Shown here one piece after another: positions 709-34,084 of a DNA stretch of 37,152 nt; position 1 is the first letter of the stretch, and every line of letters starts with the position of its first letter. Source of the stretch: Candidatus Woesearchaeota archaeon (GTDB taxonomy: Archaea; Nanobdellota; Nanobdellia; SCGC-AAA011-G17; JAFCDX01); contig JAGVZV010000009.1 in NCBI GenBank assembly GCA_018302265.1, forward strand, positions 1 through 37,152, written 5' to 3'. Under the pieces are notes generated by a model. The model searched no databases. It was not told the origin of the DNA and was given only the letters and a program-made list of their open reading frames with translations. The translations under genes were made by a program, and so were the position numbers.

Positions 709-1269
709 TTAATAAAGAATTCTCCTTATCTCAAACTTATCTGTAATTTTCTTAATGGATTCTATAAATACATTTTCATGTTCGGGGTATATTTCTATTA
801 ATCCTGGCTTGAGCAAGTTACCACCATATTTTTTAATCAACCCGTAATTTCCTTTTTTTCCATTTAGCATATAATTAAATCTTATTTTATCCTTCTTTTT
901 TAGATTAATTAAAGAATAGTATACTTGTATTTTTGAATTAAGACCAAATTTTTTTGAAAAGTAATCTCCGGAAATTATGCTTTTCCCATAGAATAGAATA
1001 TTTTCCTTTGCAAAATTTGATTCATCAAAAAAAGAATATAAATCATAAGATTTTACATGAATTGGGATATCTGAAAATTTTTGTAATTGATTTTTTATTG
1101 ATTGAGACTGCTCTAATTGTTCTTTTAAAGGTATTTTATTAAAAATTACAGTTATATCTATATCACTGGGATTAGAATTTTCCATTACAGATGAACCGAA
1201 TTGTACTATATCAAAAACATCCGAACTATAATTCAATTTTGGTTTTTTTTGCCATAAATAGTGCATCAT
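709..1269 (-). CDS. minimal nucleotidyltransferase (MNT, Pol-beta superfamily) domain protein
   Basis: GS...DxD signature in VQFGSSVMENSNPSDIDITVIF. Overlaps the upstream HEPN gene by 44 nt. Confidence 0.7.
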   Translation of the reverse strand: MMHYLWQKKPKLNYSSDVFDIVQFGSSVMENSNPSDIDITVIFNKIPLKEQLEQSQSIKNQLQKFSDIPIHVKSYDLYSFFDESNFAKENILFYGKSIISGDYFSKKFGLNSKIQVYYSLINLKKKDKIRFNYMLNGKKGNYGLIKKYGGNLLKPGLIEIYPEHENVFIESIKKITDKFEIRRILY

Positions 1270-1567
1270 TTTTAATAACCTCTGCTAATTCTTTTGTCAT
1301 CATTTGGATATAACTATCTTGATAGAAGGGGAAATCTTTGTCTAGAATGTCATAAACATCTGGGAATTTATATTGTACTATTCTGAATCTTTCTGTATGA
1401 GAAGAGGGGGTATCTTTTGTATTTTTAATAATAAACAGATCAATCAAGGCAACAAGAGATTTAAAGTATAAAACAACTGCAGAATTATATCTCTGCTTTT
1501 TTAATTCGTCTTCTGCTGAATTGAAGTATTCTCTTGCAGTTTTTTCTAGTATCTCTTCTTTTTTCAT
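1226..1567 (-). CDS. HEPN domain protein (partner of the MNT)
   Basis: 113-aa helical protein with a HEPN-like N-terminus (AREYFNSAEDELKKQRYNSAVVLYFKSLVALIDL) and an SHTERF segment. Paired with the NTase gene. Confidence 0.55.
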   Translation of the reverse strand: MKKEEILEKTAREYFNSAEDELKKQRYNSAVVLYFKSLVALIDLFIIKNTKDTPSSHTERFRIVQYKFPDVYDILDKDFPFYQDSYIQMMTKELAEVIKNDALFMAKKTKIEL

Positions 1568-1600: not shown

Positions 1601-1659
1601 TTTTATTACTAGGTAAGAAATATATTATTATAGCTTGTTATTTTATTACTAGGTAAGAA
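1601..1659. repeat. 19-bp perfect direct repeat TTTTATTACTAGGTAAGAA (1601-1619 and 1641-1659)
   Basis: Read directly from the sequence. The second copy contains the TAG stop of the 242-aa membrane protein gene. Confidence 0.9.
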
Positions 1660-2377
1660 CTTTCTTAGAAAACCATAACTGTGCCAGGCTTATCAATAAT
1701 ATAAAAATTAGCAATAAGATGATAGAAATTAAGAATCTTAATCCATACACCTCCCCCATTATTGAAATTATAACAAGCAACTTGATTATTAAGTATATAA
1801 TAACCAAAAAGAATAGTAATAAGTAAATCAAGATTAACTTCAATTTTAATAGTGAATTAAGAGCCTCTTTTAAAGCTATTTTAATTGGTTTATCCAGTTT
1901 TAAGTAGATTATTAGTAAATAATAGAAGATTATGAAGAATAAGGCTGTAAATATAATTGGATCATAGGACAGAATTGATTTTAGCGCTATTAAAAAAAGC
2001 AAATAAAACGGAAGAGTGACTATGGAAAATCTTATTAAATATTTTTTAATATCCTTTGAGTCAGATAAATAATAAAAAACTAACCCCTGGAATAGAACCC
2101 AAAATATGAATAATAACAGTGGAATCAACAAATATTGGAATAGCATGAATTTGGTTGCTGTTTTTGTCAGTTCGTTTATGGAAGTTTGCAAGTTAGGCAT
2201 ATTTTCTGTCAGGTTATTCTGAATAGCTGTCTGTAATTCCAGAAGTTTTGGTGATGTTTCTTTTAGAAATTGCAGATAATTCATTATCTGTTCTTTTATC
2301 AGTAGAAATAGTATTACTAATGATGCGGAAAACAGTACATTCAGGGAAAATACTTTCAATCTAAGATATTTTAGCAT
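1649..2377 (-). CDS. polytopic membrane protein, unknown function
   Basis: 242 aa with several long hydrophobic segments. No recognisable motif. Confidence 0.55.
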   Translation of the reverse strand: MLKYLRLKVFSLNVLFSASLVILFLLIKEQIMNYLQFLKETSPKLLELQTAIQNNLTENMPNLQTSINELTKTATKFMLFQYLLIPLLLFIFWVLFQGLVFYYLSDSKDIKKYLIRFSIVTLPFYLLFLIALKSILSYDPIIFTALFFIIFYYLLIIYLKLDKPIKIALKEALNSLLKLKLILIYLLLFFLVIIYLIIKLLVIISIMGEVYGLRFLISIILLLIFILLISLAQLWFSKKVLT

Positions 2378-2422
2378 GTATAATAAAAATTATAGAGTTT
2401 ATTAAGATTTTGTTATATTAGA

Positions 2423-2932
2423 CTATTTATATTCTCTGGTATATCCAAATTTTTCATATGCCATTAGGCCATAATTATGCAATTTAGTAAGATTCTTTCT
2501 GGTTAATGATTCTGGAAGAAATGGAGATCTCATCCCATCTGAAATCATAATCAGCTCACAAACTTGATGGTTATGATTCCTAAATCTATCATAACGGATA
2601 TTAATAGAACCTAAAACAGGATCTTCGTATCTTTTTTCTACTGGAAACATCTTTGGATCTGCTGTTAGTTGTATATTTGCATCTGCCATTGGATCGTTAG
2701 TAGACCATTTTTGTGTTTTAGTATCCCAATCGTAACGAAATTTAATCTCAGGGTGTCCAAGATATGCTATTTCCTTAGGTGGGACATGAGCATCACAAGA
2801 TAAGAAAATGGTGTGGTCTATAGTTGCAATATCTTTTATGCTATTTGGAGATTCAATGGGCTTACTTTTACAGGATACTAGGCTAGCCAACGAGATGGTT
2901 GCTATTCCAACCCAATATGCTAATTTTTTCAT
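2423..2932 (-). CDS. putative lipoprotein, unknown function
   Basis: Signal peptide ending in a lipobox-like LVSC (MKKLAYWVGIATISLASLVSCKS). Confidence 0.55.
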   Translation of the reverse strand: MKKLAYWVGIATISLASLVSCKSKPIESPNSIKDIATIDHTIFLSCDAHVPPKEIAYLGHPEIKFRYDWDTKTQKWSTNDPMADANIQLTADPKMFPVEKRYEDPVLGSINIRYDRFRNHNHQVCELIMISDGMRSPFLPESLTRKNLTKLHNYGLMAYEKFGYTREYK

Positions 2933-2971
2933 AATTTTTGTATTATAGAAAAGTATTTTAAATTATCTTTT

Positions 2972-5900
2972 TTAAGTACATACTTCGGATTTTTTATTAG
3001 ATAAAACTTGTTTTATTACTGGTTTTTGTGTAATTAATTGTGTAAACTGAATCTCACTCAATGGAATTATTACACAACTTCCACTCGTTGCTATTCTATT
3101 AGCCTCAAATATATCTTCATTATCTTTATAAGATAAGAAATTTGCTATAAAGTTCTGATCACTAGTTTGGGTGGATGGATAGAAAAGGCTTACTATTCGC
3201 ATGACATTCCAATCAGATGGTACATGAAAATAATAATCTTTTTCCACTTCAGTTGCACCAACACACTTTGCATTAAAAGCAGACCAAGAACATTTGTTAC
3301 ATTGTCCGCACTCAGTGTTATCATAAATACAATTAGATTGGCAGGATAAACATGTATTTTTATATGTTGGAGGGACTATTGCATTAAACCAGCCAAGCCA
3401 ATTTTTTGTTCTAAGATAACAATCTAATTGAGCAGTATCAAACTCGTTACACTTTTGTTCACTTTCACATCCCCCTGAAAGCTGATTACAACCATTACAA
3501 GTCTTTTCGATTTTTCGAAGTGCTACAATATTTAAGGTTACGGTTTTGGTATAATAATTTATATCTAAAACTTTGTAAGTTATACTATATATATCACCAT
3601 AATTTATTGTATTTTCTTCATTAAGTTTATATTCTACTTTAGACAAAAGTTTATGATTATCTGTAAGCTCGATACTATGATCTGCTGTATTAACATTGGT
3701 TAATTCTATTGTTAAGCTAGGATCATCAACTAGGATATAATTTTTTAAGTAAATTTTTTGATTATAATCTAGAGTAACTTTAGCAGATAAACTTTGTGGA
3801 GAAGGACCTATTTTAGAGATACAACCTGAATCAGTCCACATGCAAGTTTCCTGTTCAGTATCACATTCTTCCTTAGTACGAGTTCTACATTCTACTACTA
3901 CTTTTTCTGCACAAATTCCTCCTTCACAATATCCGCTAGCACAATCTCCATTTATGGAACAAATTTCTTCTATTCCCGATTTAATTTTTTCTGCTCCCGC
4001 AGATTGTATGGTCTCTTCTTCTACAGTTTCTGGTTTTGGAATTGTAACTGTTCCAGCAAGTGAAGCATAAATCTCTGCAGTGCTGATCTGCGCAAGTATC
4101 TTATAACTAGGATTCAAAGAATAATCTATAAGCGTTTTATATGTGATGCTATCAACTCCGTTTATGAACAAATTAATCAAATCACTTCCTTTAAGAGATA
4201 TTCTTTTGGCTTCTAACCCTTCATAGTATGCTTTGGCTTTATCCTCGCTGAAGTATTTCTTAAGCTGCTCTTCACTAAGCGTTATTTTTGCATTTAATTC
4301 AGCGCTAGTAGAAATAATTCCCTTTTGTATTTCTTCCATGGTTTCTATATTTTTGACGCTGACACTGCTCATATCAATCCAGCACTTTCCAAGGCTATTG
4401 CCCTGCTTGTCCTGGCCGCATGTTCCTATATCCTGCCAACGATCAGATTCAGATGCTTTTCCCGGATTTAATACAGAACATGTTCTTATAATTCCGGAGC
4501 TTATTAATCCATACTCTTGTGGAAGTATTACTCCTCCAAGAGAAGAGGATGTCCTTGGAACATCAGATACGCACTTATCAGCGCTTGTAATGCTCTTTGT
4601 CAGTGCATCACTCTTGACTATTCTATCGTTCAATGCATTAATCGAGTATGCTGTACTTACCTTTCCAAATCCGCAATCCTCTTTTCCATTGATGTAAACA
4701 CAAATCTTATTCATTCCTCTTGGTCCTAGTTTTTCTACGCTAACATCTCTATGTCCATCATAAGGAACTGTGTCATACAACTGATTAGAATTTCTTACTG
4801 TAACAGGCAAAGTTCTTCCTAAATCATCTCTAAGATAAACTGCATATTTAACTCCCTCTCTTGCATATCCTGTTTTAGCTATGTCGGGGATATTCCCTGC
4901 ATAAATAAAATAATAAACACTGTACATTGACTGCTCGGATGATTGCATTCCGTATTGCGTGCTGTATGTTCTTCCTGCTGTAACAGCCCATGGAGCCTCA
5001 TCAAATGTTGCAGTGAATTGAGGCGGATTTTCTGCCTCTGCCAACTGATCTACAAACTCTCCAACATCCCCGAATTTTCCGTATATTGCTGCCTCACAGA
5101 TTGTTGACCCCATTTCAGCTGTTGATCTCCCCTTAAAAGCTGCAAATGCGCTTGATCCGTATTCTGAAGTAAAATATTTTACTGAGTCTGAAACGGCATT
5201 TATATTCTGGTTGAAATTTAAGTACTCGCCACCGCTTCCCTCTGTTACGCCAAATACTTTTCCAGATATCATAGCAGATAAGCTCCCGCGCAGCTTGAAA
5301 ATATTAATCAATTCCTGCCAGAACAACTTACATACTCCTACAGACCTTATCTTGTCGCAGATTCCTATATTCTCGTGATCAATTTTAGCAGCTGATAGGC
5401 ATTCCTTAAATCCTTCAAGCAGTGATCTGATACTTCTCAAACCAGCCAGTATACCTGGCAGACAAACTGGAACTGGATCATCTGGGAAATTAGGCAATCC
5501 CAAAACAATGGATCCAATTATTCCTGTGTCAACTACTGTTCCTCTCGTCAGTGGATATTTTCCTCCAAGATTAAATCTGGATGGAGGGCACATTACAGGA
5601 TCACATACAGCAAATAAAATCTTGCAATCACTTGGATCCATAACATCCTGGCAGTGGGTTTGCTGTCCTATCTGGGTTATTCTATAAGCAGACTGTGAGC
5701 AGGCAAATTCTGTCTTCCCGATTGTTTTGCTCTGTCCATCCTTGCAAGAACCAACACTTTTTGAAATAGTAGTGCACTTACCGCCTATAGCTGCAGTTAT
5801 TCTGTCCTTTCCAGCTTTTAGCAAATCATCTCCAGAACATGGCTCTCCATCAACTCCAACATTCCAGTATTCACAATCATCCGGGTCTCCAGTTGCATAC

Positions 5901-8900
5901 CAGCTTAGCACTTTTATGAAGTTTCCATTCTCTCCAGTGGGTATACAGTACGGTCTTCCCTCATTATCAAACTGCGCCTTTGCATTTGAAGCATAATTAT
6001 TTCTTTCTCCAACATCTGTCAATTCAATGGTTTCAAGGGCTGCGTAGAATTGGCCTTTACCATCTTTAAATAATCTGTAATTCTGTTCTCCTGCTTCTAA
6101 CACCAAAGGTTCTGTTAATTTATTCAAGTTGCTTACACAATCAGGAGTGCTTTCCAATTTTGTATCAACACAGTTTACTTTATAATCGGCATTTAATGGA
6201 TTGTTGGCATTGTCTCTTTGCGTAGCAGGTAAAAATTCGTACTGTGTTGAAGCCATAAGCTGCCCCTGAGAATCAACAGAGATAAGATTGTATTTATCCC
6301 CCCCAGAAGAATATGCCTCAACTTTTATATTTTCTTTATTCGCAAGAGGAGCCATCTTCATTTCTGCAAGCTTTGTATTTATTTCATTGAAATCATCCTC
6401 AAGTTTTTTAGTGGCATCTTCGCCAGACCCGTAATATGTGGTATGACGCAATGCAGCCTTGTATTTTGAATTATAACTATTAACAAATTTTGCTTTTTCC
6501 TTGTCAGATGAGTCCTTGTTTACGCTAATCTCATTTTTAGTGGCAGTTATTGCTGCGCTCATTGCTTTTTGCTTGGCGGTAATAGATTCTTCAGTTCCTT
6601 TACACTCGTCCTGGAGCGATTTTAATCCATCCCCGCTTAATTTTTTTTCATATAATTTACACTTGTAAAGAGCCAGCCACTCGCTTGATTCAATTTTATC
6701 TGCAGCGCCTAATTCCATCGTGTTTTTATCAAATCCTTGCGGGTAATACGGAGTTAGCTCTTCAACTGAGGAAAAACAGTCTTCTCCCTTTTTATTGCAT
6801 TCTAAAACCTTTTGCTGTTCTTGTTCAAGAACATTCAATTCATCTTCTATCAGTTTAGCATGATTATTCATGCACTTATCAAATGTGTTCTGTCCAAGAG
6901 CAACCTCTTTTTCGCATATTTTATTGTAACGTGGCATAACATCCTTTCTGGCCATATTTCTATCAGCTCCGGCAAGGAATGAATTTTTGATAGTCACCCA
7001 TGCAAACGTTGCAAAGCAGACATACTTCCAGGATTTTATCATGCTGTCTAACTGGCTTATGTATCTGTCAAGAATTTCTATCTGTTTTGTTGTCTCATTG
7101 ATCATCTTGTCTATTTGACCTGGAGTCCATTGAACCAGTCTCTTCTCTATAGGAATGTGTATCATAAAAGAGGATTCAGAATAAGTATCTCCTCCGCCAG
7201 GCATTACAGTAACATAAGCGCTTTTTTTTGAATCAACTTTTTTAAGAGTCAACTGATGTCCATCCACGTCCTTATTTTGCTCATAATCTAAATACAGAGT
7301 TTGACTTCCACTGGTTTTTCCCTGCACATATTTTTGGATAACGACACGTTCTGAATAAATATTAATAACTTTCCAATAAGATATAATTTTTCCATCTTTG
7401 TCTGTTTCTTTAATATTTTCAACAGTATCTCCTTCATAATAAATACCAGAAGCGGAACTAGCTCCAGCCTCTCTATCTTCTATTGTAGCAGAAGTTTTAT
7501 CAGTGACTGGAGGAATAATCACATCAAGCAGTGTAACCCTAACACCCTCATCCTCCAAGTAAACAGGCTCGGATTTTGATTTGCTGAATAATTGATTTTC
7601 TATGGCAGATATTGATTTTTCTACAGATGCAACATTGGAAACTCTTTTCAGGTAATACAATGCCAAAGACCTTGATGTGTCCATGTCCTCATCAGTCAAG
7701 AAATCAGAAAGCGAGAAATAAGCCTCTCCTATTCCCCTGTACACCTGATCCCTTATGTTTACATCTTCAGTCATAGCCTGCTCGTAGTGGGATATTGCTG
7801 TGCAGTATAATTTTCTTGCATTAATCTTTTTTATGTCATCAGTCTCATCTGATTTTATCAAGTCAGATAGTTTATTTTGCAGTTCGGAATCATCTTCATT
7901 GATTAAAGCACTTTCATCACATATATTTTTCTTGTTTTCTTCTAAATTCTCATCTGTCGTCTCCTCCTTGAATGTTGTTCCCTTCTCGCCCTCCTGTTTT
8001 TTTGTTAGCATCAGTGTTCTCTTTTCACCGACGCCATTCCTTAGTATAACACTATACTGTTTTTCTCCTGGATTTTTTGCAGTTTGCTCAAGTATGTTAT
8101 AAACTTTCCAATTAGAACCAGAAGCAATGCTCATATCCTCAACAATAATCTTGTAATCAGTTCCGTCCATTGACTCAACTTTTAATTTAACTTCCTTTTG
8201 TATATCTCCAATCTTATTCAATTTTATTCTTACCTGATCATGGAAAAATGCCGAGGAACCCGGGATTGTTATGGTTTTAATATCTCCTTTGCTCAATAAT
8301 AAAACCCCGCGTTCATTGTATCTCTCTAAGTTCTGATTTTCCTCTTCAGAACTGAACAACAACCCAAGCGGGGATATTGCAGAATCATAAACCTGGATTT
8401 TAGCCACATTATTTTCTATATCCACTAACCTCAGATAGCCCTTTCCGTTCCAGAATGAATTTTTATATGACTGACCTTTCCATTGATCCTCATTTAATTC
8501 TCTCAGAGCGAGGTCTGATGATGAAGCGCCTGCAAATCCACGCATGAGATCAAAATATATCCTTGCGCTCATGTTAAGAGTTATTTCTTCAGGAACTTTT
8601 GTTTCATCTTTTATCTGCCTTAGTGTAACAATTACATAACCCAGATTGTCTATAGTCAGTGATCCCTTATTTGGCTGTTGGTACTTAATTCCTCGGACAT
8701 AGCTGCTGGATGATCCACTAGGAGTTACTACAACCCTATTTATATTTGGATTAGAGATGAATGGTTCTGTTTCTGGAGCATTTTCACCCATAAAACTTCC
8801 AAGGGTGATACCTTTAAGAAAAACATATACTGGAACATCTGTTGCCTCTATTTGTGTGCTTACAAGCGAAGCTGGCTCGTTATTAACAACATTTATGCTG

Positions 8901-8995
8901 ATAACTTCTCCTAAATCTTCTGAAATTGTGCTAGATGATTGGGCATAAACAGACATAGGTGTTACTATCATTAACAGCATCAGTGTTAGTGCCAT
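2972..8995 (-). CDS. giant secreted Cys-rich surface protein, unknown function (about 2007 aa from the ATG at 8995; the ORF is open to 9037)
   Basis: Uninterrupted 6-kb ORF. Sec-type signal MALTLMLLMIVTPMSVYA-QSS. The ATG at 8995 avoids overlap with the upstream stop at 9003. The C-terminal half has dense Cys clusters (for example CSINGDCASGYCEGGICAEK and CNGCNQLSGGCESEQKC). Confidence 0.85.
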   Translation of the reverse strand: MALTLMLLMIVTPMSVYAQSSSTISEDLGEVISINVVNNEPASLVSTQIEATDVPVYVFLKGITLGSFMGENAPETEPFISNPNINRVVVTPSGSSSSYVRGIKYQQPNKGSLTIDNLGYVIVTLRQIKDETKVPEEITLNMSARIYFDLMRGFAGASSSDLALRELNEDQWKGQSYKNSFWNGKGYLRLVDIENNVAKIQVYDSAISPLGLLFSSEEENQNLERYNERGVLLLSKGDIKTITIPGSSAFFHDQVRIKLNKIGDIQKEVKLKVESMDGTDYKIIVEDMSIASGSNWKVYNILEQTAKNPGEKQYSVILRNGVGEKRTLMLTKKQEGEKGTTFKEETTDENLEENKKNICDESALINEDDSELQNKLSDLIKSDETDDIKKINARKLYCTAISHYEQAMTEDVNIRDQVYRGIGEAYFSLSDFLTDEDMDTSRSLALYYLKRVSNVASVEKSISAIENQLFSKSKSEPVYLEDEGVRVTLLDVIIPPVTDKTSATIEDREAGASSASGIYYEGDTVENIKETDKDGKIISYWKVINIYSERVVIQKYVQGKTSGSQTLYLDYEQNKDVDGHQLTLKKVDSKKSAYVTVMPGGGDTYSESSFMIHIPIEKRLVQWTPGQIDKMINETTKQIEILDRYISQLDSMIKSWKYVCFATFAWVTIKNSFLAGADRNMARKDVMPRYNKICEKEVALGQNTFDKCMNNHAKLIEDELNVLEQEQQKVLECNKKGEDCFSSVEELTPYYPQGFDKNTMELGAADKIESSEWLALYKCKLYEKKLSGDGLKSLQDECKGTEESITAKQKAMSAAITATKNEISVNKDSSDKEKAKFVNSYNSKYKAALRHTTYYGSGEDATKKLEDDFNEINTKLAEMKMAPLANKENIKVEAYSSGGDKYNLISVDSQGQLMASTQYEFLPATQRDNANNPLNADYKVNCVDTKLESTPDCVSNLNKLTEPLVLEAGEQNYRLFKDGKGQFYAALETIELTDVGERNNYASNAKAQFDNEGRPYCIPTGENGNFIKVLSWYATGDPDDCEYWNVGVDGEPCSGDDLLKAGKDRITAAIGGKCTTISKSVGSCKDGQSKTIGKTEFACSQSAYRITQIGQQTHCQDVMDPSDCKILFAVCDPVMCPPSRFNLGGKYPLTRGTVVDTGIIGSIVLGLPNFPDDPVPVCLPGILAGLRSIRSLLEGFKECLSAAKIDHENIGICDKIRSVGVCKLFWQELINIFKLRGSLSAMISGKVFGVTEGSGGEYLNFNQNINAVSDSVKYFTSEYGSSAFAAFKGRSTAEMGSTICEAAIYGKFGDVGEFVDQLAEAENPPQFTATFDEAPWAVTAGRTYSTQYGMQSSEQSMYSVYYFIYAGNIPDIAKTGYAREGVKYAVYLRDDLGRTLPVTVRNSNQLYDTVPYDGHRDVSVEKLGPRGMNKICVYINGKEDCGFGKVSTAYSINALNDRIVKSDALTKSITSADKCVSDVPRTSSSLGGVILPQEYGLISSGIIRTCSVLNPGKASESDRWQDIGTCGQDKQGNSLGKCWIDMSSVSVKNIETMEEIQKGIISTSAELNAKITLSEEQLKKYFSEDKAKAYYEGLEAKRISLKGSDLINLFINGVDSITYKTLIDYSLNPSYKILAQISTAEIYASLAGTVTIPKPETVEEETIQSAGAEKIKSGIEEICSINGDCASGYCEGGICAEKVVVECRTRTKEECDTEQETCMWTDSGCISKIGPSPQSLSAKVTLDYNQKIYLKNYILVDDPSLTIELTNVNTADHSIELTDNHKLLSKVEYKLNEENTINYGDIYSITYKVLDINYYTKTVTLNIVALRKIEKTCNGCNQLSGGCESEQKCNEFDTAQLDCYLRTKNWLGWFNAIVPPTYKNTCLSCQSNCIYDNTECGQCNKCSWSAFNAKCVGATEVEKDYYFHVPSDWNVMRIVSLFYPSTQTSDQNFIANFLSYKDNEDIFEANRIATSGSCVIIPLSEIQFTQLITQKPVIKQVLSNKKSEVCT

Positions 8996-9002
8996 TAATT
9001 TT

Positions 9003-10835
9003 TTACTCGGGTTCTTTAAAGTATTTGGATCCTGCATTTTTTGATATTGAAGAGTATAATAGATTAAGAGACTCGTATGTTCCTGGGATGTGGTCTGCCA
9101 TTGTATAGAATGTAATTGAATCCTTCTGGTATAAACCCTCTCTTGTCAGATCCCATGTGAAATCAGCTCCGCCCTTCAGCACTTCATTAACAACAATATC
9201 ATCTATTTTTGTTGTTATACACTGCCTGTCTTTTAGCAATCCTCCCCAGATTGTATTTTTTGGAGTTTCAACACACTTTTCTATTTTTTGTCCGCGTATT
9301 GTTATTGGCCATGTGCTGTTCCCGATGATGAAAGATTTAACATCATAAGTTCCAGGAATTAAATCTATTTCAGTATTTCCCGGATAGACAAAGGACGTTG
9401 AAAAATCATTATCCTGATTCTTCAATTCAAATATGATGGTTTCTGAATCATAAGGGTCCCTTATTGTCCCATCGTCTTTTTCAATTAATTTAACGCTTAT
9501 TTTTTTAGTTTTATAAGGCTCAAGTATTAAAGAGACAACCTGCGGCTCATTTGTCGAAGCAAATTGCTGCGCATCATAATACCCTGCCTTTTCCCCCATT
9601 ACTAAACCATTAAGACACTGTGGGAACAATGCTGTAAGTGATCCTTCTTCACTTTCTCCGGTAATTCCAATCTCGCATTTGGTGGTAATGCACTTGTATC
9701 TAATGTCCACTCCTGATAATGGAACAAGCAATCCATTTTCATTTGCTGCAAATGTGTAAACACTGACATTTGTCAGAGGATATTTGCATATTGGAAACTT
9801 AAAGTCCGGCTGGTCATATGTCCCAAATACATTTTTCTTTGGCTGGTTATTATCAATGATTATCAGATTAGCAAACTGGAATGAAAATCCCTGGCCATCC
9901 AATGCGCTGGGATCAATTAAACTCATGAGAACAGGGAATTTTACATCGTAAACAAAGTGCCAGTTATTAATGCATAAAACAGAGCTTAAAATTCCAGAGA
10001 CTTGGTCTGAGAATTTTTGCGTCAATTGATCGCTCTTCATGATATTGCCTTCAGAAGGAAAAACATCAACGACCATTGGCCATCTAGAAGAATATAAGAA
10101 CGAGGATTGTAAATTTGCCACACTCATTCCTGGATCGATATCAAAATACTCATTGTCAGGATTTGGGTCTTCGTATGCTCCCTTCAAGCGTACAGCATTT
10201 ATGTTACTTGAAATAATACTTTTCATGCTCCTTATTACATCCTGTTTTTTCCAGACGCTTTTTGTACAGCTAAATTCTGTGCCAGAAACAGGAATCTCAG
10301 GGAAGGCAACCATTGCATCAAATGCTTTTTCTTCAAAGAAGTTTGTCTTATCCTCTTCTGCCTGGACATTCTTTGCTATTTTGTACATTCTTCCAAATGG
10401 AACTTCCAGATTGGATATGATTGGATAATCATCCAGATTAAAAGTCAAGCCCTTTGTGGTTATTTTAATTGGATCCAGATTAAAAGTCAAGCCCTTTGTG
10501 GTTATTTTAATTGGAAGCGTTACTTTGGAAATAACATTCTCGTCCTGTATTAAAACATCTGATTTAATATTGTAATTAACATCAAACTCGTATCCCTGCT
10601 CAGCAAAATCACTAAGGATTTCAGTACAAGATTTAATATTCAAGATCAAATAATTCTCAAGCTGTTTTCTTATTTCTTCCAGCGCAGGCACTTGTCTTGT
10701 CTGGATTCCATTGGCTGTTTCATAAAACCAGTACGGAACTTCTATTCCAGGAGAGAGTTCAAGCGTGCTGGAAAAAGGCCTTTCTGGATTTAGCCAGCCA
10801 GTGTCACTGCTTCTGCTGTTAAAAGTTTTAAGCAT
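9003..10835 (-). CDS. large hypothetical protein without its own signal peptide; possibly the body of a frameshifted pilin-like adhesin
   Basis: 610-aa ORF with an extracellular-looking composition and scattered Cys. Its N-terminus, MLKTFNSRSSDTGW, is not hydrophobic. The 5' end overlaps the 77-aa prepilin-like ORF by 46 nt. Confidence 0.7.
   Translation of the reverse strand: MLKTFNSRSSDTGWLNPERPFSSTLELSPGIEVPYWFYETANGIQTRQVPALEEIRKQLENYLILNIKSCTEILSDFAEQGYEFDVNYNIKSDVLIQDENVISKVTLPIKITTKGLTFNLDPIKITTKGLTFNLDDYPIISNLEVPFGRMYKIAKNVQAEEDKTNFFEEKAFDAMVAFPEIPVSGTEFSCTKSVWKKQDVIRSMKSIISSNINAVRLKGAYEDPNPDNEYFDIDPGMSVANLQSSFLYSSRWPMVVDVFPSEGNIMKSDQLTQKFSDQVSGILSSVLCINNWHFVYDVKFPVLMSLIDPSALDGQGFSFQFANLIIIDNNQPKKNVFGTYDQPDFKFPICKYPLTNVSVYTFAANENGLLVPLSGVDIRYKCITTKCEIGITGESEEGSLTALFPQCLNGLVMGEKAGYYDAQQFASTNEPQVVSLILEPYKTKKISVKLIEKDDGTIRDPYDSETIIFELKNQDNDFSTSFVYPGNTEIDLIPGTYDVKSFIIGNSTWPITIRGQKIEKCVETPKNTIWGGLLKDRQCITTKIDDIVVNEVLKGGADFTWDLTREGLYQKDSITFYTMADHIPGTYESLNLLYSSISKNAGSKYFKEPE
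10431..10514. repeat. perfect 42-bp tandem duplication (10431-10472 and 10473-10514)
   Basis: ATCCAGATTAAAAGTCAAGCCCTTTGTGGTTATTTTAATTGG occurs twice back to back. It is in frame and produces PIKITTKGLTFNLD twice in the 610-aa protein. Confidence 0.97.
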
Positions 10836-11023
10836 GAATCAAAGTGCTCTTTTACTGATTTTATCTGCTCCGGCACTTGAGCTGCTCTTTCAGCCTCTCT
10901 TTCCAAAGCAGTTTTTAGTATATACTGATTAACAACAAAAACACTGCCTATTACAAGAAGTATTATCAAACCCGCTATCATAAAAGTAGTTACCTGCCCT
11001 CTTTTTTCCATGTTTATACTCAA
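10790..11023 (-). CDS. prepilin-like N-terminal fragment or small pilin (class III signal peptide)
   Basis: MEKRGQ followed by VTTFMIAGLIILLVIGSVFVV. This is the archaeal prepilin pattern of [KR]-G followed by a hydrophobic helix. Confidence 0.55.
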   Translation of the reverse strand: MSINMEKRGQVTTFMIAGLIILLVIGSVFVVNQYILKTALEREAERAAQVPEQIKSVKEHFDSCLKLLTAEAVTLAG

Positions 11024-11063
11024 TAAAACAAGGTATATAAAGTTTTTGAATAGTTATTTAAAG

Positions 11064-14987: not shown

Positions 14988-15171
14988 TTTAATATGAAAC
15001 CGAGAACATGCTTATTGGTATAAACAAGCCTTAACCGGTTTATCCTACTTTTTCTTATAGAAAGTATTTATAAAACTATCTTTTTAGAATAAGATTAACA
15101 ATTATCTTCTCTTTTTAATCTTCGGTTGGATCCATATTTATTCTTAGTTTTTAGAATATATAAAGATTTTG

Positions 15172-15261
15172 ATAGCCCTAGGAGGATTCGAACCTCCGTC
15201 ACAGGCTGACCTTGTTTAATACTCCAAAGGCCCGTATCCTTGGCCACTAGACTATAGGGCT
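15172..15261 (-). tRNA. tRNA-Gln(UUG) with a canonical 16-nt intron at 15208-15223
   Basis: Reverse complement reads AGCCCTA...CGGGC-CTTTGG[AGTATTAAACAAGGTC]A-GCCTG...GGAGG-TTCGAAT-CCTCC-TAGGGCT-A. It has the A1-U72 pair typical of archaeal tRNA-Gln. Clean hBHBh' fold: central helix CUUU/AAGG, bulges GGA and UCA, inner pairs G-C and U-A. Confidence 0.85.
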
Positions 15262-15281
15262 ATTATTGAATAGATTGAAAT

Positions 15282-15352: not shown

Positions 15353-16216
15353 ATGAAAGAATTAGATAATTTATCAAAAAAAGAACTTCTACAGTTATTA
15401 TCGATAATTGTTTTAAGTGATGGAACTATAGCCAAAAAGAAACAATATTTGGGTCCAATTAAATTAGAAACTGTATATTATAATAAATGTCAACACAGTA
15501 TGTTTAAACAGATATGTAAAAAATTATTCAATAAAGAATTACATGAATATATTTACTTATGTAATAATAAAAAAATAATAAGTTCTAGATTATATGGAAA
15601 AAAATATGTAAAAGAATTATTGAGATTATCTCCTTCTTACCAAACTTCTCCAGGACCTATTTTATCCAAAAAAGAGTTTTTAGATTCTGCACAACCTTCT
15701 ATAAAACATATTTTAGAAAATAAAAATATTAAATTAAAACGATTAGCATTAAGAACGTATTTTGATTTTGATGGTAGTATAGTTCCATCATTTTATATGA
15801 AATATAAAAAAGATAAAAAGAATGGAAAAATATATTCTTATTATCAGATACAATTTGAATGCCCTGTTTATATATCAGAAACTAATCCTTATTTAATTAA
15901 AGAATTAGTAGTTCTTTGTAAAAATTTAGGATTAAATGCGGTAATTAAAAAGGATAAGAGAAATTGGAGTGGAATAGAAGGGTTAAGAATTTCTGAATTA
16001 AAAAGTATTAAAAAATTTATAAGTTGGGGTGGTCCAATCAGCGGAGTTAAAATATCATTAAAAAGTCATAGATTTTTTGGGAAAACTAAAAAATTAATTT
16101 GTAATAGAATAAATTATATCTTAAATAAAGGGATACCCCTATCTTATTATTTTAAAGATGAGAAGGGAGCTTTAGAAAAGAAAAAAGAATTAGATAAATT
16201 ACTCTTTTTGAAATAA
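15353..16216 (+). CDS. free-standing LAGLIDADG-like homing endonuclease family protein
   Basis: Two LAGLIDADG-like motifs (LLSIIVLSDGTIAKK and LRTYFDFDGSIVPS). Very Lys/Asn/Ile-rich ORF in a patch visibly more AT-rich than its flanks. Confidence 0.5.
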   Translation: MKELDNLSKKELLQLLSIIVLSDGTIAKKKQYLGPIKLETVYYNKCQHSMFKQICKKLFNKELHEYIYLCNNKKIISSRLYGKKYVKELLRLSPSYQTSPGPILSKKEFLDSAQPSIKHILENKNIKLKRLALRTYFDFDGSIVPSFYMKYKKDKKNGKIYSYYQIQFECPVYISETNPYLIKELVVLCKNLGLNAVIKKDKRNWSGIEGLRISELKSIKKFISWGGPISGVKISLKSHRFFGKTKKLICNRINYILNKGIPLSYYFKDEKGALEKKKELDKLLFLK

Positions 16217-17665: not shown

Positions 17666-18394
17666 TTAACTCAATCCTACAGATTCCAAAACAAATTTTA
17701 TTTCCATTTGCCGTAATGTGCACGGATTTTTTATTGATGATACATCAAACTTTATTAAGTTATCGCTTTTAGAACCTAATAATTTTGTTTCAACATTGCA
17801 AGCATCCACTGTCTTGCCATTGTTTATGCAAGTCAGATATTTTTTTGCCAGTATTACTGTATCAGTGTAATCTTTTATGTTTGACGCTATTTTTTTGTTT
17901 AAATCAACTTTAAAATCATATTTTACACTGATTATTGATTTATCATCTATAGTTTCAATCAAAATCGGGTCTGAAACAAGGAAAAATCCATCATCTGACA
18001 ACTTGAAGGTGTACTTAAGGTTCTTCAATCTTGTATTGTAACTTATATACCTTCTAAAATTTTCATCAAAATACTTGTTAAATGAATTTACCATATTGTT
18101 GTCTGGATTGCAATTATCCGGATTAAAACTCCAAAGGGGATAATTTCCCTTTAAACAGCCAACTCCTTTATTAGAAAGATCTTCCATGGAATCGCAAAAT
18201 GCCAGTCTTGCAGAATCCTCTACAAAGAAATAATCCTTTTCATTTTCAATCAGAGTATTTATTATAAATCCTGCTCTTTCTCCTACCAATTCATCTCTCT
18301 CCTTTATTTTATTCTTATAAAATGTATATCCTAATATGCCCACTATTAAAATTGTGAAAATTGCTATCATTGGCAAAAATTGTCCTTTTTTCAT
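17666..18394 (-). CDS. pilin-like protein (class III signal peptide)
   Basis: MKKGQ-FLPMIAIFTILIVGILGY from the ATG at 18394, which lies 1 nt after the upstream stop codon. Confidence 0.65.
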   Translation of the reverse strand: MKKGQFLPMIAIFTILIVGILGYTFYKNKIKERDELVGERAGFIINTLIENEKDYFFVEDSARLAFCDSMEDLSNKGVGCLKGNYPLWSFNPDNCNPDNNMVNSFNKYFDENFRRYISYNTRLKNLKYTFKLSDDGFFLVSDPILIETIDDKSIISVKYDFKVDLNKKIASNIKDYTDTVILAKKYLTCINNGKTVDACNVETKLLGSKSDNLIKFDVSSIKNPCTLRQMEIKFVLESVGLS

Positions 18395-18395
18395 T

Positions 18396-18944
18396 TTATC
18401 CTGCAACAGTATATTCTGTAGTATACGACTTATCTTGCTCTCCTGTTTCCAAAGAGACCGATATTGTAGCTCCTTCCTGGAACGGAATAAATTGTTTTGC
18501 GCTTAGCGAGGGTTCATCAAACTGCCCTTTTTCTGCTAACAGAGTATCTCCTATTTTTAATTTGTAATTATAACTTTTAAAAACCGCATCCATAATTTTT
18601 TTTGTTTCTTCTTTCATTGGAGTTTCATACTTAAGCTTGTTTATACTGTACAATCTTGCTAAATCAGAAATAGTAATGTATGTATTTTCTACAACAATTG
18701 GAGTTCTCAAATAGTTCAGCAATATAAGATCTAAATCAAGTCTGTCCTGCGCAGTAATACTCTGTTGTATTGGACCATAGGAGGGTAATTTTGATTTAAC
18801 TGCAAGGGGGGTTACAAAAAAAAACCAGTAAAACAATAATGTTAGTATAATTAGCAAAAATGCTACCATACCAAAGATTGCCAGTTCCTGACCCTTTTTA
18901 TTTAGTACGATCTTCTGCACCCCCACCACCCATGCTTCCACCAC
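18396..18944 (-). CDS. pilin-like protein (class III signal peptide); start uncertain
   Basis: LNKKGQ-ELAIFGMVAFLLIILTLLFYWFF. Possible GTG start at 18920. The track start at 18944 overlaps the upstream gene by 47 nt. Confidence 0.6.
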   Translation of the reverse strand: MVEAWVVGVQKIVLNKKGQELAIFGMVAFLLIILTLLFYWFFFVTPLAVKSKLPSYGPIQQSITAQDRLDLDLILLNYLRTPIVVENTYITISDLARLYSINKLKYETPMKEETKKIMDAVFKSYNYKLKIGDTLLAEKGQFDEPSLSAKQFIPFQEGATISVSLETGEQDKSYTTEYTVAG

Positions 18945-19422
18945 TTAATGTTGGAAGTATTACTGTTTGCTCTTGATTTATTATTGAATACTCAAATATG
19001 ACAGGTTTATCAATTAGCAGCAAATAATCTGAAGAAGAATAACAACTTAATTTTTCATTTTGTATTTTTGCACTGCACAATGGAAAATCTGAAATAAATT
19101 TATCTTTATTTATATATTTATCATTGAGTGCCTTTCCATTTAGATCTCTAAGAGTGACATTTATTTCAAGATTTCCAAAATCAAAACAATTTTCCAGCTT
19201 ATCCAGTTCAGATGTGTCTATAATTCCAAAGTGATCATTATAAGCAAGACAATTATATATATTATACATGATTAGTTGAGATTCGAATTTCTTTACATCT
19301 ATTTTTCTTGATAATACCATAGAAATACCGCCAACAATAACTAAGAGAATTATTATTAGAATACCTATTCTTAAGAACCACAAAGGCATATCCATTGCAA
19401 TATTAAATTGTCCCTTTTTCAT
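18898..19422 (-). CDS. pilin-like protein (class III signal peptide)
   Basis: MKKGQ-FNIAMDMPLWFLRIGILIIILLVIVGG. Confidence 0.6.
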   Translation of the reverse strand: MKKGQFNIAMDMPLWFLRIGILIIILLVIVGGISMVLSRKIDVKKFESQLIMYNIYNCLAYNDHFGIIDTSELDKLENCFDFGNLEINVTLRDLNGKALNDKYINKDKFISDFPLCSAKIQNEKLSCYSSSDYLLLIDKPVIFEYSIINQEQTVILPTLSGGSMGGGGAEDRTK

Positions 19423-19816
19423 TGGATATTTTTATAATATTCCCCTCCTTTTTGAAATTTATAAATAAACTTTTTATATCGTTGTTTTTAAAATCTAAAT
19501 CGCTAAAACAATACAATGAATAAGGATTTAATTTTTCATCCTGTTCATTTGCACTGATAATACATGGTTTATTATTAAATGATATTGAATAACCCTCTTT
19601 TGCAAATGATGTTTTTACATTCAAATCAATTGGAGATGCAGATATAGAATCTATTAGAAAGGCAGAATCTATTGCAAGCCTTTGCATTTCGTATCTAGCA
19701 TCTTCTCTTACTTGGACAATGAAGCTAATTACTATTGCTCCTACTACAGCAGCGAGTACTATATAGAATAAGAACAGATACTCTTTTTCCTGGCCCCTTT
19801 TATCCATACTAATCAA
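19403..19816 (-). CDS. pilin-like protein (class III signal peptide)
   Basis: MDKRGQ-EKEYLFLFYIVLAAVVGAIVISFIV. Confidence 0.6.
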   Translation of the reverse strand: MISMDKRGQEKEYLFLFYIVLAAVVGAIVISFIVQVREDARYEMQRLAIDSAFLIDSISASPIDLNVKTSFAKEGYSISFNNKPCIISANEQDEKLNPYSLYCFSDLDFKNNDIKSLFINFKKEGNIIKISNEKGTI

Positions 19817-19844
19817 AAATTAATTGAATTTATATTAGTTTTGA

Positions 19845-20945: not shown

Positions 20946-20946
20946 T

Positions 20947-21099
20947 TTATCCTGTCAAAGATTTGATAATGCTATCAAACTTACCAGCTATTGTGCTTGC
21001 GCCGCCAGTGAATATTAATACTAAGATAACAAGAACAATTATTGCTATTATAGTTAGTATAATTGTATTTAAAGCAAGCTCAGAACCTTTTCTATTCAT
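20947..21099 (-). CDS. minimal pilin-like protein (50 aa)
   Basis: MNRKGS-ELALNTIILTIIAIIVLVILVLIFTGG. Paralogous to the N-terminus of the upstream 120-aa pilin. ATGA overlap at 21096-21099. The longer track start (21144) is rejected. Confidence 0.6.
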   Translation of the reverse strand: MNRKGSELALNTIILTIIAIIVLVILVLIFTGGASTIAGKFDSIIKSLTG

Positions 21100-21458: not shown

Positions 21459-21486
21459 TTTAACACCTTGTTAATTATTTACTAAA

Positions 21487-22191: not shown

Positions 22192-22198
22192 TTAATTT

Positions 22199-23306: not shown

Positions 23307-23340
23307 GGTACATGACTCTGTTTATTATATATAAAACTTA

Positions 23341-34048: not shown

Positions 34049-34084
34049 CAATAATTATTTAAATGCGTGTTCGTATAATTGAGG

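What the first reader, a model, noticed from the sequence alone, without database searches (positions are those of the whole stretch)
1649..11023. Operon headed by a prepilin-like leader and dominated by a 2021-aa Cys-rich secreted giant with no recognisable domains
There are five co-directional genes: a 77-aa prepilin-like ORF, a 610-aa ORF, a 2021-aa ORF, a 169-aa lipoprotein and a 242-aa polytopic membrane protein. Spacers are short or the genes overlap.

The giant has a Sec signal. Its N-terminal half is Ser/Glu/Lys-rich, it contains an internal hydrophobic stretch (YVCFATFAWVTI), and its C-terminal half is packed with Cys clusters, for example CKDGQSKTIGKTEFACSQSAYRITQIGQQTHCQDVMDPSDCKILFAVCDPVMCPP, CSINGDCASGYCEGGICAEK and CNGCNQLSGGCESEQKC.

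I recognise no catalytic motif.

Giant disulfide-rich surface proteins in small-genome archaea are candidates for host attachment or cell-cell bridging. The pilin-type leader at the head of the operon ties this block functionally to the pilus locus 7 kb away.
Basis: partly seen in the sequence, partly recalled or inferred. Interest (0 to 1): 0.65.

Follow-up and report, generated by a model that had tools for sequence, protein, structure and literature searches.

The report
Conserved giant surface-protein cassette of Nanoarchaeia
The 2021-residue protein belongs to a large uncharacterised family of secreted giants found in Woesearchaeota-type archaea, always encoded just after a pilin-like stalk protein, and it most likely forms a cell-surface complex for contacting other cells.

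Summary
The ORFs exist as described, with one correction. The "77-aa prepilin ORF" and the 610-aa ORF are two halves of one gene, here called f669. This window splits it with a 43-nt deletion. A 99.6-99.97% identical contig encodes it intact as a 669-aa protein.

f669 begins M-E-K-R-G-Q plus a hydrophobic helix. Five small pilin-like proteins in the nearby pilus locus carry the same class III (prepilin-type) motif. Its model (pLDDT 85.8) shows an N-terminal helix, an alpha/beta region and a beta-sandwich stalk.

The giant belongs to a family of 1132 clusters, found in at least 589 genome stretches, all Nanoarchaeota/Woesearchaeota. The architecture is fixed: signal peptide, N module, mid module, 630-aa Cys-rich core, and two variable slots. 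About 39% of members carry peptidoglycan hydrolases in those slots; this member carries none.

The f669 gene abuts the giant in essentially every locus examined. A homologue of the 242-aa membrane protein follows in 47 of 80 loci. The 169-aa lipoprotein is strain-specific.

SLT-bearing members were already noted in the literature as large extracellular transglycosylases. The core fold and the function remain unknown.

Best reading, at confidence about 0.5: a pilin-anchored surface complex for contact with a host or prey cell.

The parts
9003..11011 (-). f669 gene: a pilin-like (class III signal) stalk protein. Its intact form is 669 aa. In this window it is split into a 73-aa ATG-start (77-aa TTG-start) N-terminal ORF and a 610-aa ORF.
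   Evidence: The intact 669-aa P0027 lies on near-identical contig L004. Homologous single ORFs occur in L001 and in 76 database proteins. The N-terminal consensus is M-x-K-[RK]-G-Q-V-T-x-[FY]-I-I-L-G. The AF2 model has pLDDT 85.8, with helix 4-32, an alpha/beta region and a beta-sandwich array at 410-640.
10791..10792 (-). Junction of the 43-nt deletion relative to L004 (L004 10221-10263). It causes the frameshift that creates the '77-aa ORF'.
   Evidence: blastn and direct comparison of the window with L004.
10431..10515 (-). Perfect 42-nt tandem duplication, in frame. It duplicates PIKITTKGLTFNLD. It is absent from L004 and from homologues.
   Evidence: Tandem Repeats Finder: period 42, 2.0 copies, 100% match. 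Comparison with P0027 and P0026.
11034..11041 (-). TTTATATA, a TATA-box-like element centred about 27 nt upstream of the f669 ATG at 11011. It may drive a leaderless or short-leader transcript.
   Evidence: Read directly from the sequence. Not tested statistically.
2972..9037 (-). Giant secreted protein of 2021 aa.
   Evidence: ORF. 22 giant homologues at E<=1e-48. 1132 representative clusters match the core profile.
8168..8905 (-). Conserved N module of the giant (about residues 45-290), which follows the signal peptide (residues 1-32).
   Evidence: Collinear BLASTP segments in all homologues. phmmer hits in 72 of 80 loci.
6788..7315 (-). Conserved mid module (about residues 575-750). It includes the hydrophobic stretch YVCFATFAWVTI (residues 672-683) with invariant C674 and K684.
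   Evidence: The Kyte-Doolittle score is 1.26, below a transmembrane threshold.
4103..5995 (-). Conserved core (residues 1015-1645). It has 15 invariant Cys and a Gly-rich hydrophobic hairpin at residues 1163-1207.
   Evidence: Alignment A2. Exhaustive profile search. The AF2 model is poor (pLDDT 49.6); only a beta-sandwich at core residues 325-445 is confident.
2975..3940 (-). Variable Cys-rich C-terminal region (residues 1700-2021). In relatives this slot holds SLT, M23, amidase, lysozyme and other modules.
   Evidence: Shared with only one of 80 loci, L013. Domain positions in relatives.
2423..2932 (-). 169-aa lipobox protein. It is a strain-specific insert between the giant and the membrane-protein gene.
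   Evidence: No homologue in 80 related loci. Present in L004. No family or PDB match.
1649..2377 (-). m242: a polytopic membrane protein with about 6 hydrophobic spans. It is the third conserved component.
   Evidence: Hydrophobicity analysis. A homologous ORF lies downstream on the same strand in 47 of 80 loci, 30 of them directly adjacent. No Pfam family.

Best explanation
The block is this organism's copy of a vertically inherited three-gene envelope cassette of class Nanoarchaeia (the Woesearchaeota/Pacearchaeota-type DPANN archaea).

Components:
1. f669 is a roughly 670-aa protein with a class III (prepilin-type) signal.
2. The giant is a Sec-exported modular protein with no membrane anchor of its own.
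3. m242 is a small polytopic membrane protein.

Proposed mechanism (inferred, not shown):
- The prepilin peptidase cleaves f669 after K-R-G.
- The hydrophobic N-terminal helix of f669 then holds it in the membrane, or at the tip or base of a type-IV-pilus-like fibre built by the nearby locus.
- The beta-sandwich stalk of f669 projects outward.
- The giant is translated from the overlapping downstream gene in fixed proportion and is exported.
- The conserved N, mid and core modules of the giant dock on f669 and/or m242.
- The two variable slots of the giant are displayed towards a neighbouring cell.

In relatives those slots carry peptidoglycan hydrolases, a pretoxin-HINT domain, or ankyrin or LRR repeats. 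That points to contact with, and local breaching of, a bacterial envelope. In this member the C-terminal slot is a Cys-rich, probably disulfide-bonded module with no enzyme, so it would act mainly as an adhesin or bridge.

In this window f669 is frameshifted. This is either an assembly error or a knocked-out variant.
For: Shown directly:
- 77 aa + 610 aa are one gene.
- The K-[RK]-G-Q-hydrophobic N-terminus is conserved in 72 homologues. Five small pilin-like proteins in the window's pilus locus share it.
- There is a weak TadE/G-like Pfam hit, E=0.004.
- The f669 model has a long N-terminal helix plus beta-sandwich arrays. These resemble the stalks of Gram-positive pilins and adhesins, and SlaB.
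- The giant family has a signal-peptide-like N-terminus in 135 of 137 members and a C-terminal TM segment in only 1 of 137.
- f669 abuts or overlaps the giant in every locus with upstream room.
- m242 lies downstream in 47 of 80 loci.
- Variable slots hold SLT (54-55 of 177), Amidase_3, M23, Phage_lysozyme2, Glucosaminidase, PT-HINT, Ank and LRR.
- Export is supported independently. N-X-S/T sequons are depleted in the giant (2 observed against 18 expected, P=2.6e-6). The same holds across both families (ratio about 0.33) and in the window's other exported proteins (2 against 14.3). It does not hold for cytoplasmic proteins (25 against 28.9).
- The window also encodes a secreted Amidase_2 within the pilin cluster. 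An M23 peptidase occupies the same position in L001.

From the literature:
- Large extracellular SLT-domain proteins specific to Woese- and Pacearchaeota have been proposed to bind bacterial walls (PMC8204110, PMC9723730).
- Type IVb minor pilins that hold a secreted partner (CofB-CofJ, TcpB-TcpF) give a worked precedent (PMC6048534, PMC9565799).
Against: - No physical interaction between the three proteins has been shown.
- The core fold is unknown. The AF2 model has pLDDT 49.6 and Foldseek found nothing significant.
- This member and about 61% of the family carry no recognisable enzyme.
- No prepilin peptidase gene lies in the window.
- The cassette is not inside the pilus operon. Pilus genes are absent near it in distant relatives.
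- The conserved position among ribosomal and other housekeeping genes, seen at one locus in each assembly examined (copy number per genome was not counted), would also fit a basic envelope structure.
- No host is known for these archaea.
Confidence: 0.5

Rival explanations
1. Two-component cell-envelope lattice (S-layer-like). The giant would be the outer canopy and f669 the membrane-anchored stalk, as with SlaA/SlaB of Sulfolobales. Hydrolase modules would be optional decorations.
For: - The pair occurs at one locus per assembly examined across the class, in a conserved housekeeping neighbourhood near S3Ae, TFIIB, LSm and S8e.
- It combines a large unanchored exported protein with a smaller anchored protein that has a beta-sandwich stalk.
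- SlaB (8qox_B) is among the Foldseek hits at E=6.7e-5.
- No S-layer protein is known for this lineage (bioRxiv 10.1101/2023.10.27.564410).
Against: - The core is 30-40% identical across the class, with dozens of invariant residues. S-layer proteins usually diverge beyond recognition above genus level (stated in 10.1101/2023.10.27.564410).
- The giant is strongly depleted in N-glycosylation sequons, whereas archaeal S-layer proteins are sequon-rich. All exported proteins here are depleted, though, so this is weak.
- The SlaB match is a generic beta-sandwich hit (TM 0.12-0.17), no better than matches to Gram-positive pilins.
- A class III signal is not a known feature of S-layer anchors.
- Insertion of PT-HINT, ankyrin and hydrolase modules is unusual for lattice proteins.
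Confidence: 0.2
2. Surface-tethered or released scavenging scaffold. The giant would be an extracellular enzyme carrier that degrades peptidoglycan and other debris for nutrient uptake, without any specific host contact.
For: - About 39% of members carry muralytic domains, and some carry several: SLT + Amidase_3 + deacetylase in P0016.
- The window has an additional secreted Amidase_2.
- Nanoarchaeota are reported as rich in peptidoglycan hydrolases (PMC12352652).
- Woesearchaeota are proposed to recycle cell-wall material (PMC9723730).
Against: - Most members, including this one, have no enzyme module.
- About 1600 residues of conserved non-enzymatic scaffold, plus an obligatory pilin-like partner, are hard to explain for simple exoenzymes.
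- Ankyrin, LRR and PT-HINT modules point to protein or cell targets.
Confidence: 0.15
3. Polymorphic-toxin-like delivery protein. A conserved N-terminal delivery region would carry a variable C-terminal effector, and the downstream 169-aa lipoprotein would be the cognate immunity protein.
For: - The family has a conserved N-terminal 1650 residues with a variable tail of 38-1856 aa.
- One relative has a PT-HINT pretoxin domain.
- The 169-aa gene sits directly after the variable tail and is strain-specific.
Against: - No toxin or pretoxin domain was found in this member.
- L013 shares the same C-terminal region but has no 169-aa homologue. Ribosomal genes follow its giant directly.
- The conserved, vertically inherited location of the giant is unlike typical mobile polymorphic toxin loci.
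- A second variable slot lies internally, not at the C-terminus.
Confidence: 0.08

Closest known systems
[quoted passage not shown] 2021, PMC8204110; 'large lytic murein transglycosylase' of Vigneron et al. 2022, PMC9723730)
   Same: Same lineage, same size range (up to about 3000 aa) and extracellular. 54-55 of 177 members of the family defined here carry an SLT/GH23 domain, so this is very probably the same family.
   Different: This member has no SLT or any other enzyme domain. The papers describe the family only through its SLT domain. They do not describe the conserved N/mid/core architecture, the two variable slots, or the obligatory pilin-like and membrane-protein neighbours. Identity with fam00969 could not be checked by accession.
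Type IVb pilus minor pilin plus secreted partner (CofB-CofJ of ETEC CFA/III; TcpB-TcpF of Vibrio cholerae TCP)
   Same: A large pilin-like protein with a prepilin-type N-terminus and a beta-rich C-terminal part is encoded next to a Sec-exported protein with no anchor of its own. In the known systems the minor pilin holds or exports the partner at the pilus tip (PMC6048534, PMC9565799).
   Different: There is no sequence or specific fold similarity. The partner here is 2000-3800 aa, not about 35 kDa. The pair is not inside the pilus operon. The system is archaeal, and no interaction has been shown.
SlaA/SlaB two-component S-layer of Sulfolobales
   Same: A large unanchored exported protein is paired with a smaller membrane-anchored beta-sandwich stalk protein from an adjacent gene. 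SlaB appears among the Foldseek hits for f669.
   Different: The anchor is N-terminal and pilin-like, not a C-terminal TM. The gene order is reversed. The giant is sequon-poor and well conserved across a class. Modular enzyme and toxin inserts are present.
SPEARE proteins of Ca. Nanohaloarchaeum antarcticus and giant surface proteins of CPR predators such as Vampirococcus lugosii (SPEARE from my own knowledge; Vampirococcus giant proteins only from search listings, PMC8080830, not read)
   Same: These are giant modular surface proteins of ultrasmall episymbionts that carry degradative modules and are proposed to mediate host attachment or invasion.
   Different: No homology. The domain content differs (protease, adhesin and nuclease against muralytic, Cys-rich core). 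No pilin-like partner is described for them.

Membership tests
Nanoarchaeia giant surface-protein family (defined here by core profile A2; probably fam00969 of PMC8204110) | Conserved ~630-aa Cys-rich core with invariant motifs (C-x-D-x-M ... C-D-P-V-x-C-P-x-S-R ... G-I-C-D) | tested here: met
   Homologues at E=0 to 1e-48. Invariant columns. 1132 representatives match the profile.
Nanoarchaeia giant surface-protein family (defined here by core profile A2; probably fam00969 of PMC8204110) | Collinear N module and mid module ahead of the core, with the core starting near residue 1100 | tested here: met
   BLASTP segments. Family median core start is 1097; the query core starts near 1015-1125.
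Nanoarchaeia giant surface-protein family (defined here by core profile A2; probably fam00969 of PMC8204110) | N-terminal signal peptide and no C-terminal membrane anchor | tested here: met
   Hydrophobicity analysis of the query. Family figures are 135/137 and 1/137. No dedicated signal-peptide predictor was available.
Nanoarchaeia giant surface-protein family (defined here by core profile A2; probably fam00969 of PMC8204110) | f669-family gene immediately upstream on the same strand | tested here: met
   Window and L004. All loci with upstream room among 80 GTDB loci and 6 metagenome loci.
Nanoarchaeia giant surface-protein family (defined here by core profile A2; probably fam00969 of PMC8204110) | SLT/GH23 lytic transglycosylase domain (the feature by which the literature named the family) | tested here: not met
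   No Pfam hit at E<=0.1. Not recovered by a family-specific jackhmmer that finds SLT in 55 of 177 members. The 'transglycosylase' label therefore does not apply to this member.
Nanoarchaeia giant surface-protein family (defined here by core profile A2; probably fam00969 of PMC8204110) | Same cluster as fam00969, checked by accession | not testable with these tools
   The term 'fam00969' is not found in the held supplementary files.
Archaeal type IV pilin-like proteins (class III signal peptide) | Short charged n-region, [KR]-[GA] cleavage motif, then about 20 hydrophobic residues (FlaFind-type pattern, recalled from memory) | tested here: met
   M-E-K-R-G-Q-V-T-T-F-M-I-A-G-L-I-I-L-L-V-I-G in the window and P0027. 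K3 is kept in 64/72, [RK]4 in 66/72, G/A5 in 68/72 and Q6 in 69/72. Five small pilin-like ORFs have the same K-[KR]-G-Q.
Archaeal type IV pilin-like proteins (class III signal peptide) | Extended N-terminal alpha-helix | tested here: met
   AF2 helix at residues 4-32.
Archaeal type IV pilin-like proteins (class III signal peptide) | Match to a curated pilin or pseudopilin family | tested here: inconclusive
   PF13400 TadE/G-like at E=0.0044 and 17.8 bits, below the 22.3-bit cut-off. Nothing in NCBIfam.
Archaeal type IV pilin-like proteins (class III signal peptide) | Cleavage by a prepilin peptidase and incorporation into a filament | not testable with these tools
   No peptidase A24 gene in the window. 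The rest of the genome was not available.
Archaeal S-layer (SlaA/SlaB-type) | Sequence or specific structural similarity to known S-layer proteins | tested here: inconclusive
   f669 against SlaB 8qox_B gives E=6.7e-5 but TM 0.12/0.17. This is the same level as generic beta-sandwich arrays. The giant has no hits.
Archaeal S-layer (SlaA/SlaB-type) | Many N-glycosylation sequons | tested here: not met
   2 sequons against 18.1 expected in the giant; family ratio 0.33.
Archaeal S-layer (SlaA/SlaB-type) | Very high expression and a regular lattice | not testable with these tools
   No expression or imaging data were available.
Polymorphic toxin systems | Conserved N-terminal region with a variable C-terminal domain | tested here: met
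Polymorphic toxin systems | Recognisable pretoxin or toxin domain in this protein | tested here: not met
   No Pfam hit. PT-HINT occurs in only one relative, P0017.
Polymorphic toxin systems | Immunity gene downstream that co-varies with the C-terminal domain | tested here: not met
   L013 shares the C-terminal region (E=1e-37) but lacks any 169-aa homologue.

The most novel reading that the evidence does not exclude
The f669-giant-m242 cassette may be the conserved core of an undescribed archaeal cell-contact and penetration apparatus. A pilin-anchored giant would use its Cys-rich core, with its Gly-rich hydrophobic hairpin, to engage or insert into a partner cell's envelope. Its swappable slots would carry wall-cutting enzymes or binding modules matched to the host. 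If so, it would be the long-sought host-interaction machine of Woese- and Pacearchaeota, and would indicate bacterial hosts or prey for many of them.
Probability: 0.25. Interest if true: 0.8.

Novelty: new member of a known kind. Interest (0 to 1): 0.5.

Why it matters
Woesearchaeota and Pacearchaeota are among the most widespread uncultivated archaea. How they live, and on whom, is unknown.

This analysis turns an "ORFan giant" into a defined target with three features:
- a three-gene cassette found in at least 589 genome stretches (all 80 loci retrieved come from Nanoarchaeota/Woesearchaeota assemblies);
- a fixed scaffold architecture;
- two slots that, in about 39% of lineages, hold enzymes that cut bacterial cell walls.

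That supports cross-domain (archaeon-bacterium) contact as a common lifestyle. It also gives concrete reagents for testing it, namely the f669 stalk, the giant's N module and the SLT/M23 modules.

For the window itself the result is more modest. This is an ordinary, enzyme-less member of that family, and its partner gene is broken in this assembly.

Tried and rejected
- Pfam, NCBIfam and PHROGs on all four proteins gave no family. The only hint was a sub-threshold TadE/G-like hit on the leader.
- PDB sequence searches gave nothing meaningful. They covered the giant, the core profile, the f669 profile and the 169-aa protein.
- AF2 of the 631-aa core with an 18-sequence alignment gave pLDDT 49.6. 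Foldseek against PDB returned only weak ApaG-like beta-sandwich matches to one subdomain, E>=0.004. The core fold therefore stays unknown.
- Foldseek of the good f669 model against PDB and BFVD returned only generic beta-sandwich arrays, with no specific family.
- A third homologous-protein search with the core profile saturated its candidate list and added only 6 fragments.
- fam00969 was not found in the held supplements of PMC8204110. Makarova et al. 2019 on archaeal polymorphic toxins is not held.
- A cryptic SLT domain in the query was rejected by family-specific jackhmmer and motif search.
- The toxin/immunity reading of the 169-aa gene was rejected, because L013 has the same C-terminal region without that gene.
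- Conserved linkage to pilus genes was not seen within the retrieved flanks of 80 loci, nor in L005-L007. The 80-locus flanks reach only about 4.7 kb upstream of f669, so that test is weak.
- The high GC of the giant gene (0.37-0.42 against about 0.30 in the flanks) probably reflects Gly/Cys/Pro/Ala-rich composition rather than transfer. This was not tested, but synteny is vertical.

Full report
**Observation**

The window is archaeal and AT-rich, with GC 0.25-0.42. It encodes ribosomal proteins S3Ae and S15/S13, a GAN/Cdc45-like DHH protein, RPA and LSm.

The quoted peptide strings are all present. Of the giant's 54 Cys, 51 lie after residue 700. Its N-terminus has a hydrophobic h-region at residues 13-33, followed by VYA|Q.

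The 169-aa ORF has a lipobox-like LVSC. The 242-aa ORF has about six hydrophobic spans. Pfam, NCBIfam, PHROGs and PDB sequence searches found nothing in the giant, the 610-aa, the 169-aa or the 242-aa proteins.

**Correction: four genes, not five**

The 77-aa "prepilin ORF" and the 610-aa ORF are one gene, here called f669.
- In L001 the corresponding ORF is continuous (674 aa) and starts MEKRGQVTIYIILGF.
- Contig L004 matches the window at 99.6-99.97% identity. It encodes an intact 669-aa protein, P0027.
- The window lacks 43 nt of L004, with the junction at window 10791/10792. This shifts the frame.
- The window also carries a perfect 42-nt in-frame tandem duplication at 10431-10515.
- Homologues contain neither change.
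- The differences between the two assemblies cluster in patches. The window is therefore a strain variant or a local misassembly. Two of about 70 other loci also show f669 split in two.

**f669**

Seventy-six database homologues of 630-740 aa were found. All those that carry names are from Nanoarchaeota or Woesearchaeota.

The N-terminus is conserved as M-x-K-[RK]-G-Q-V-T-x-[FY]-I-I-L-G, followed by about 20 hydrophobic residues. This fits the archaeal class III (prepilin-type) signal pattern, which I recall from memory.

Five small proteins in the window's pilus locus have the same K-[KR]-G-Q motif: the four ORFs between 17666 and 19816, and the ORF at 21096-21458. That locus also holds:
- a T2SSE-family ATPase interrupted by an intein;
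- a 633-aa polytopic protein;
- a secreted Amidase_2.

The leader alone gives a weak TadE/G-like Pfam hit at E=0.004.

An AF2 model built from 72 sequences is good, with pLDDT 85.8. It shows a helix at residues 4-32, an alpha/beta region up to about residue 400, and a beta-sandwich array at 410-640. Foldseek finds only generic matches, at low TM-scores: stalk arrays of Gram-positive pilins and adhesins (SdrD, SpaA, PitA, SpaC), SlaB, and phage fibre and baseplate proteins.

**The giant family**

The first search returned 22 giants of 1285-2970 aa. BLASTP shows a collinear architecture (alignments):
- an N module, query residues about 45-290;
- a core, about 1015-1645, with 15 invariant Cys.

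An exhaustive profile search with the core found 1132 representative clusters at 50% identity. Of these, 967 score below 1e-30. Among 137 full-length representatives:
- the median length is 2206 aa;
- the core starts near residue 1100;
- 135 have a signal-peptide-like N-terminus;
- only 1 has a C-terminal TM-like segment;
- the tail after the core ranges from 38 to 1856 aa.

A scan of GTDB species genomes found at least 589 matching stretches. The 80 loci retrieved are all titled Nanoarchaeota, Woesearchaeota, Nanoarchaeia or "archaeon".

**Variable slots**

Pfam scans of 41 members and of selected relatives place accessory domains in two slots. One lies after the N module. The other lies after the core. 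The domains found are SLT, Amidase_3, M23, Phage_lysozyme2, Glucosaminidase, Polysacc_deac_2, DUF1615, PT-HINT, ankyrin and LRR.

Family-specific jackhmmer finds SLT in 54-55 of 177 members. Some muralytic-type domain occurs in 54 of 137 full-length members, or 39%.

The window's protein has none. Its C-terminal 320 residues are Cys-rich and are shared with only one other locus, L013.

**Synteny**

In six metagenome loci and 80 GTDB loci, an f669-family ORF lies immediately upstream of the giant on the same strand, abutting or overlapping its start. This holds wherever upstream sequence exists.

A homologue of the 242-aa membrane protein (m242) lies downstream on the same strand in 47 of 80 loci. 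Thirty of those are directly adjacent.

The 169-aa gene has no homologue in any locus. L013 has the same C-terminal region as the query but no such gene, which argues against a toxin/immunity pair.

The neighbourhood (S3Ae, TFIIB, LSm, S8e, L37e) recurs in distant relatives. This indicates vertical inheritance.

The pilin cluster lies near the cassette only in this clade, and housekeeping genes separate the two.

**Independent support for export**

N-X-S/T sequons are strongly depleted.

| Protein set | Observed | Expected |
|---|---|---|
| The giant | 2 | 18.1 (P=2.6e-6) |
| 137 full-length giants | 940 | 2680 |
| 74 f669 proteins | 145 | 440 |
| The window's other predicted exported proteins | 2 | 14.3 (P=7e-5) |
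| 15 cytoplasmic proteins | 25 | 28.9 |

Cys content is 2.4-2.7% in exported proteins and 0.96% in cytoplasmic ones. Being Cys-rich is therefore a property of this organism's secretome as a whole, not something particular to the giant.

**What stays unknown**

The core did not fold with confidence. With an 18-sequence alignment the model reached pLDDT 49.6. Only one beta-sandwich subdomain is reliable, and Foldseek found nothing significant.

The sub-threshold hydrophobic hairpin at residues 1163-1207, with its conserved Gly, Pro and Cys, could be a buried helical pair or a membrane-active element. No tool available here can tell which.

**Literature**

Castelle et al. 2021 describe a Woese-/Pacearchaeota-specific family, fam00969. 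[quoted passage not shown] The authors propose that it binds bacterial walls (PMC8204110).

Vigneron et al. 2022 report "large lytic murein transglycosylase" in Woesearchaeota (PMC9723730).

The family defined here very probably includes those proteins, but I could not confirm this by accession. I found no description of the scaffold architecture, the pilin-like partner or the membrane partner.

Two further papers bear on the interpretation:
- Type IVb minor pilins that hold a secreted partner (CofB-CofJ, TcpB-TcpF) are the nearest mechanistic precedent (PMC6048534, PMC9565799).
- For cultivated Nanobdella, S-layer candidates are described as Ig-rich and sequon-rich, and S-layer proteins as poorly conserved above genus level (bioRxiv 10.1101/2023.10.27.564410). 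The giant differs on both counts.

**Verdict**

The block is an enzyme-less member of a widespread, lineage-specific, functionally uncharacterised cassette.

The best-supported reading, at confidence about 0.5, is a surface complex. The pilin-like f669, perhaps with m242, would hold the exported giant and present its variable modules to another cell.

The rival readings are:
- an S-layer-like lattice (0.2);
- a scavenging enzyme scaffold (0.15);
- a polymorphic-toxin-like system (0.08).

Novelty: a new member of a kind already glimpsed in the literature. Interest is moderate, at 0.5. It would rise if the cassette proves to be the host-contact machine of these archaea.

Noticed in passing
Whole window: exported proteins at 2423-2932, 2972-9037, 9003-10835 and 17666-23193. 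Also 137 giant and 74 f669 homologues.: N-X-S/T glycosylation sequons are about 3-fold depleted, and Cys is about 2.5-fold enriched, in predicted exported proteins of this lineage but not in cytoplasmic ones. The reason sequons are avoided is unexplained. No AglB/STT3 gene lies in the window.
   Followed up: partly
window 10791/10792, 10431-10515, and SNP patches at 9062-9112, 4445-4496 and 1907-1987: Relative to the near-identical contig L004, the window has a 43-nt deletion, a 42-nt tandem duplication and three tight clusters of substitutions. The other 10 kb of overlap has only 3 differences. This suggests strain recombination patches or local misassembly.
   Followed up: partly
window 25468-29316 (-): The T2SSE-family pilus/archaellum-type ATPase (1282 aa) is interrupted by an intein that contains a LAGLIDADG endonuclease domain.
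   Followed up: no
window 19845-20945 (-); L001 1-184: A signal-anchored Amidase_2 (N-acetylmuramoyl-L-alanine amidase) sits inside the pilin-like gene cluster of an archaeon. At the same position in the related genome L001 the gene encodes an M23 peptidase. The pilus locus therefore also carries a swappable peptidoglycan hydrolase.
   Followed up: partly
window 17666-25242 and 25468-29316: A type-IV-pilus-like locus is present, with at least 5 class III signal proteins, a 633-aa polytopic protein and the ATPase. One groundwater preprint (10.1101/2020.05.14.094862) states that type IV pili systems are missing from DPANN genomes.
   Followed up: no
L005 5984-6103, L006 5977-6174, L007 6006-6143; also L029, L031, L032 and L034: In more distant relatives a conserved 39-65-aa ORF (MKKYLLLIEDE.LW.KFK...) lies directly upstream of f669 and overlaps it. 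It may be a small ribbon-helix-helix-type regulator. It is absent from the window.
   Followed up: partly
window 15171-15262 and 15353-16216: The tRNA-Lys(CTT) call is 92 nt long, so it probably contains an intron. It lies next to a free-standing LAGLIDADG-like ORF of 287 aa. LAGLIDADG ORFs also recur near the cassette in L005 and L007.
   Followed up: no
window 709-1567, 34079-34912 and 36238-37140: A nucleotidyltransferase (Pol-beta/MNT-like) ORF overlaps a 113-aa ORF with no family hit; they may form a toxin-antitoxin pair. A tyrosine integrase and a Fic-domain protein lie at the other end of the window.
   Followed up: no
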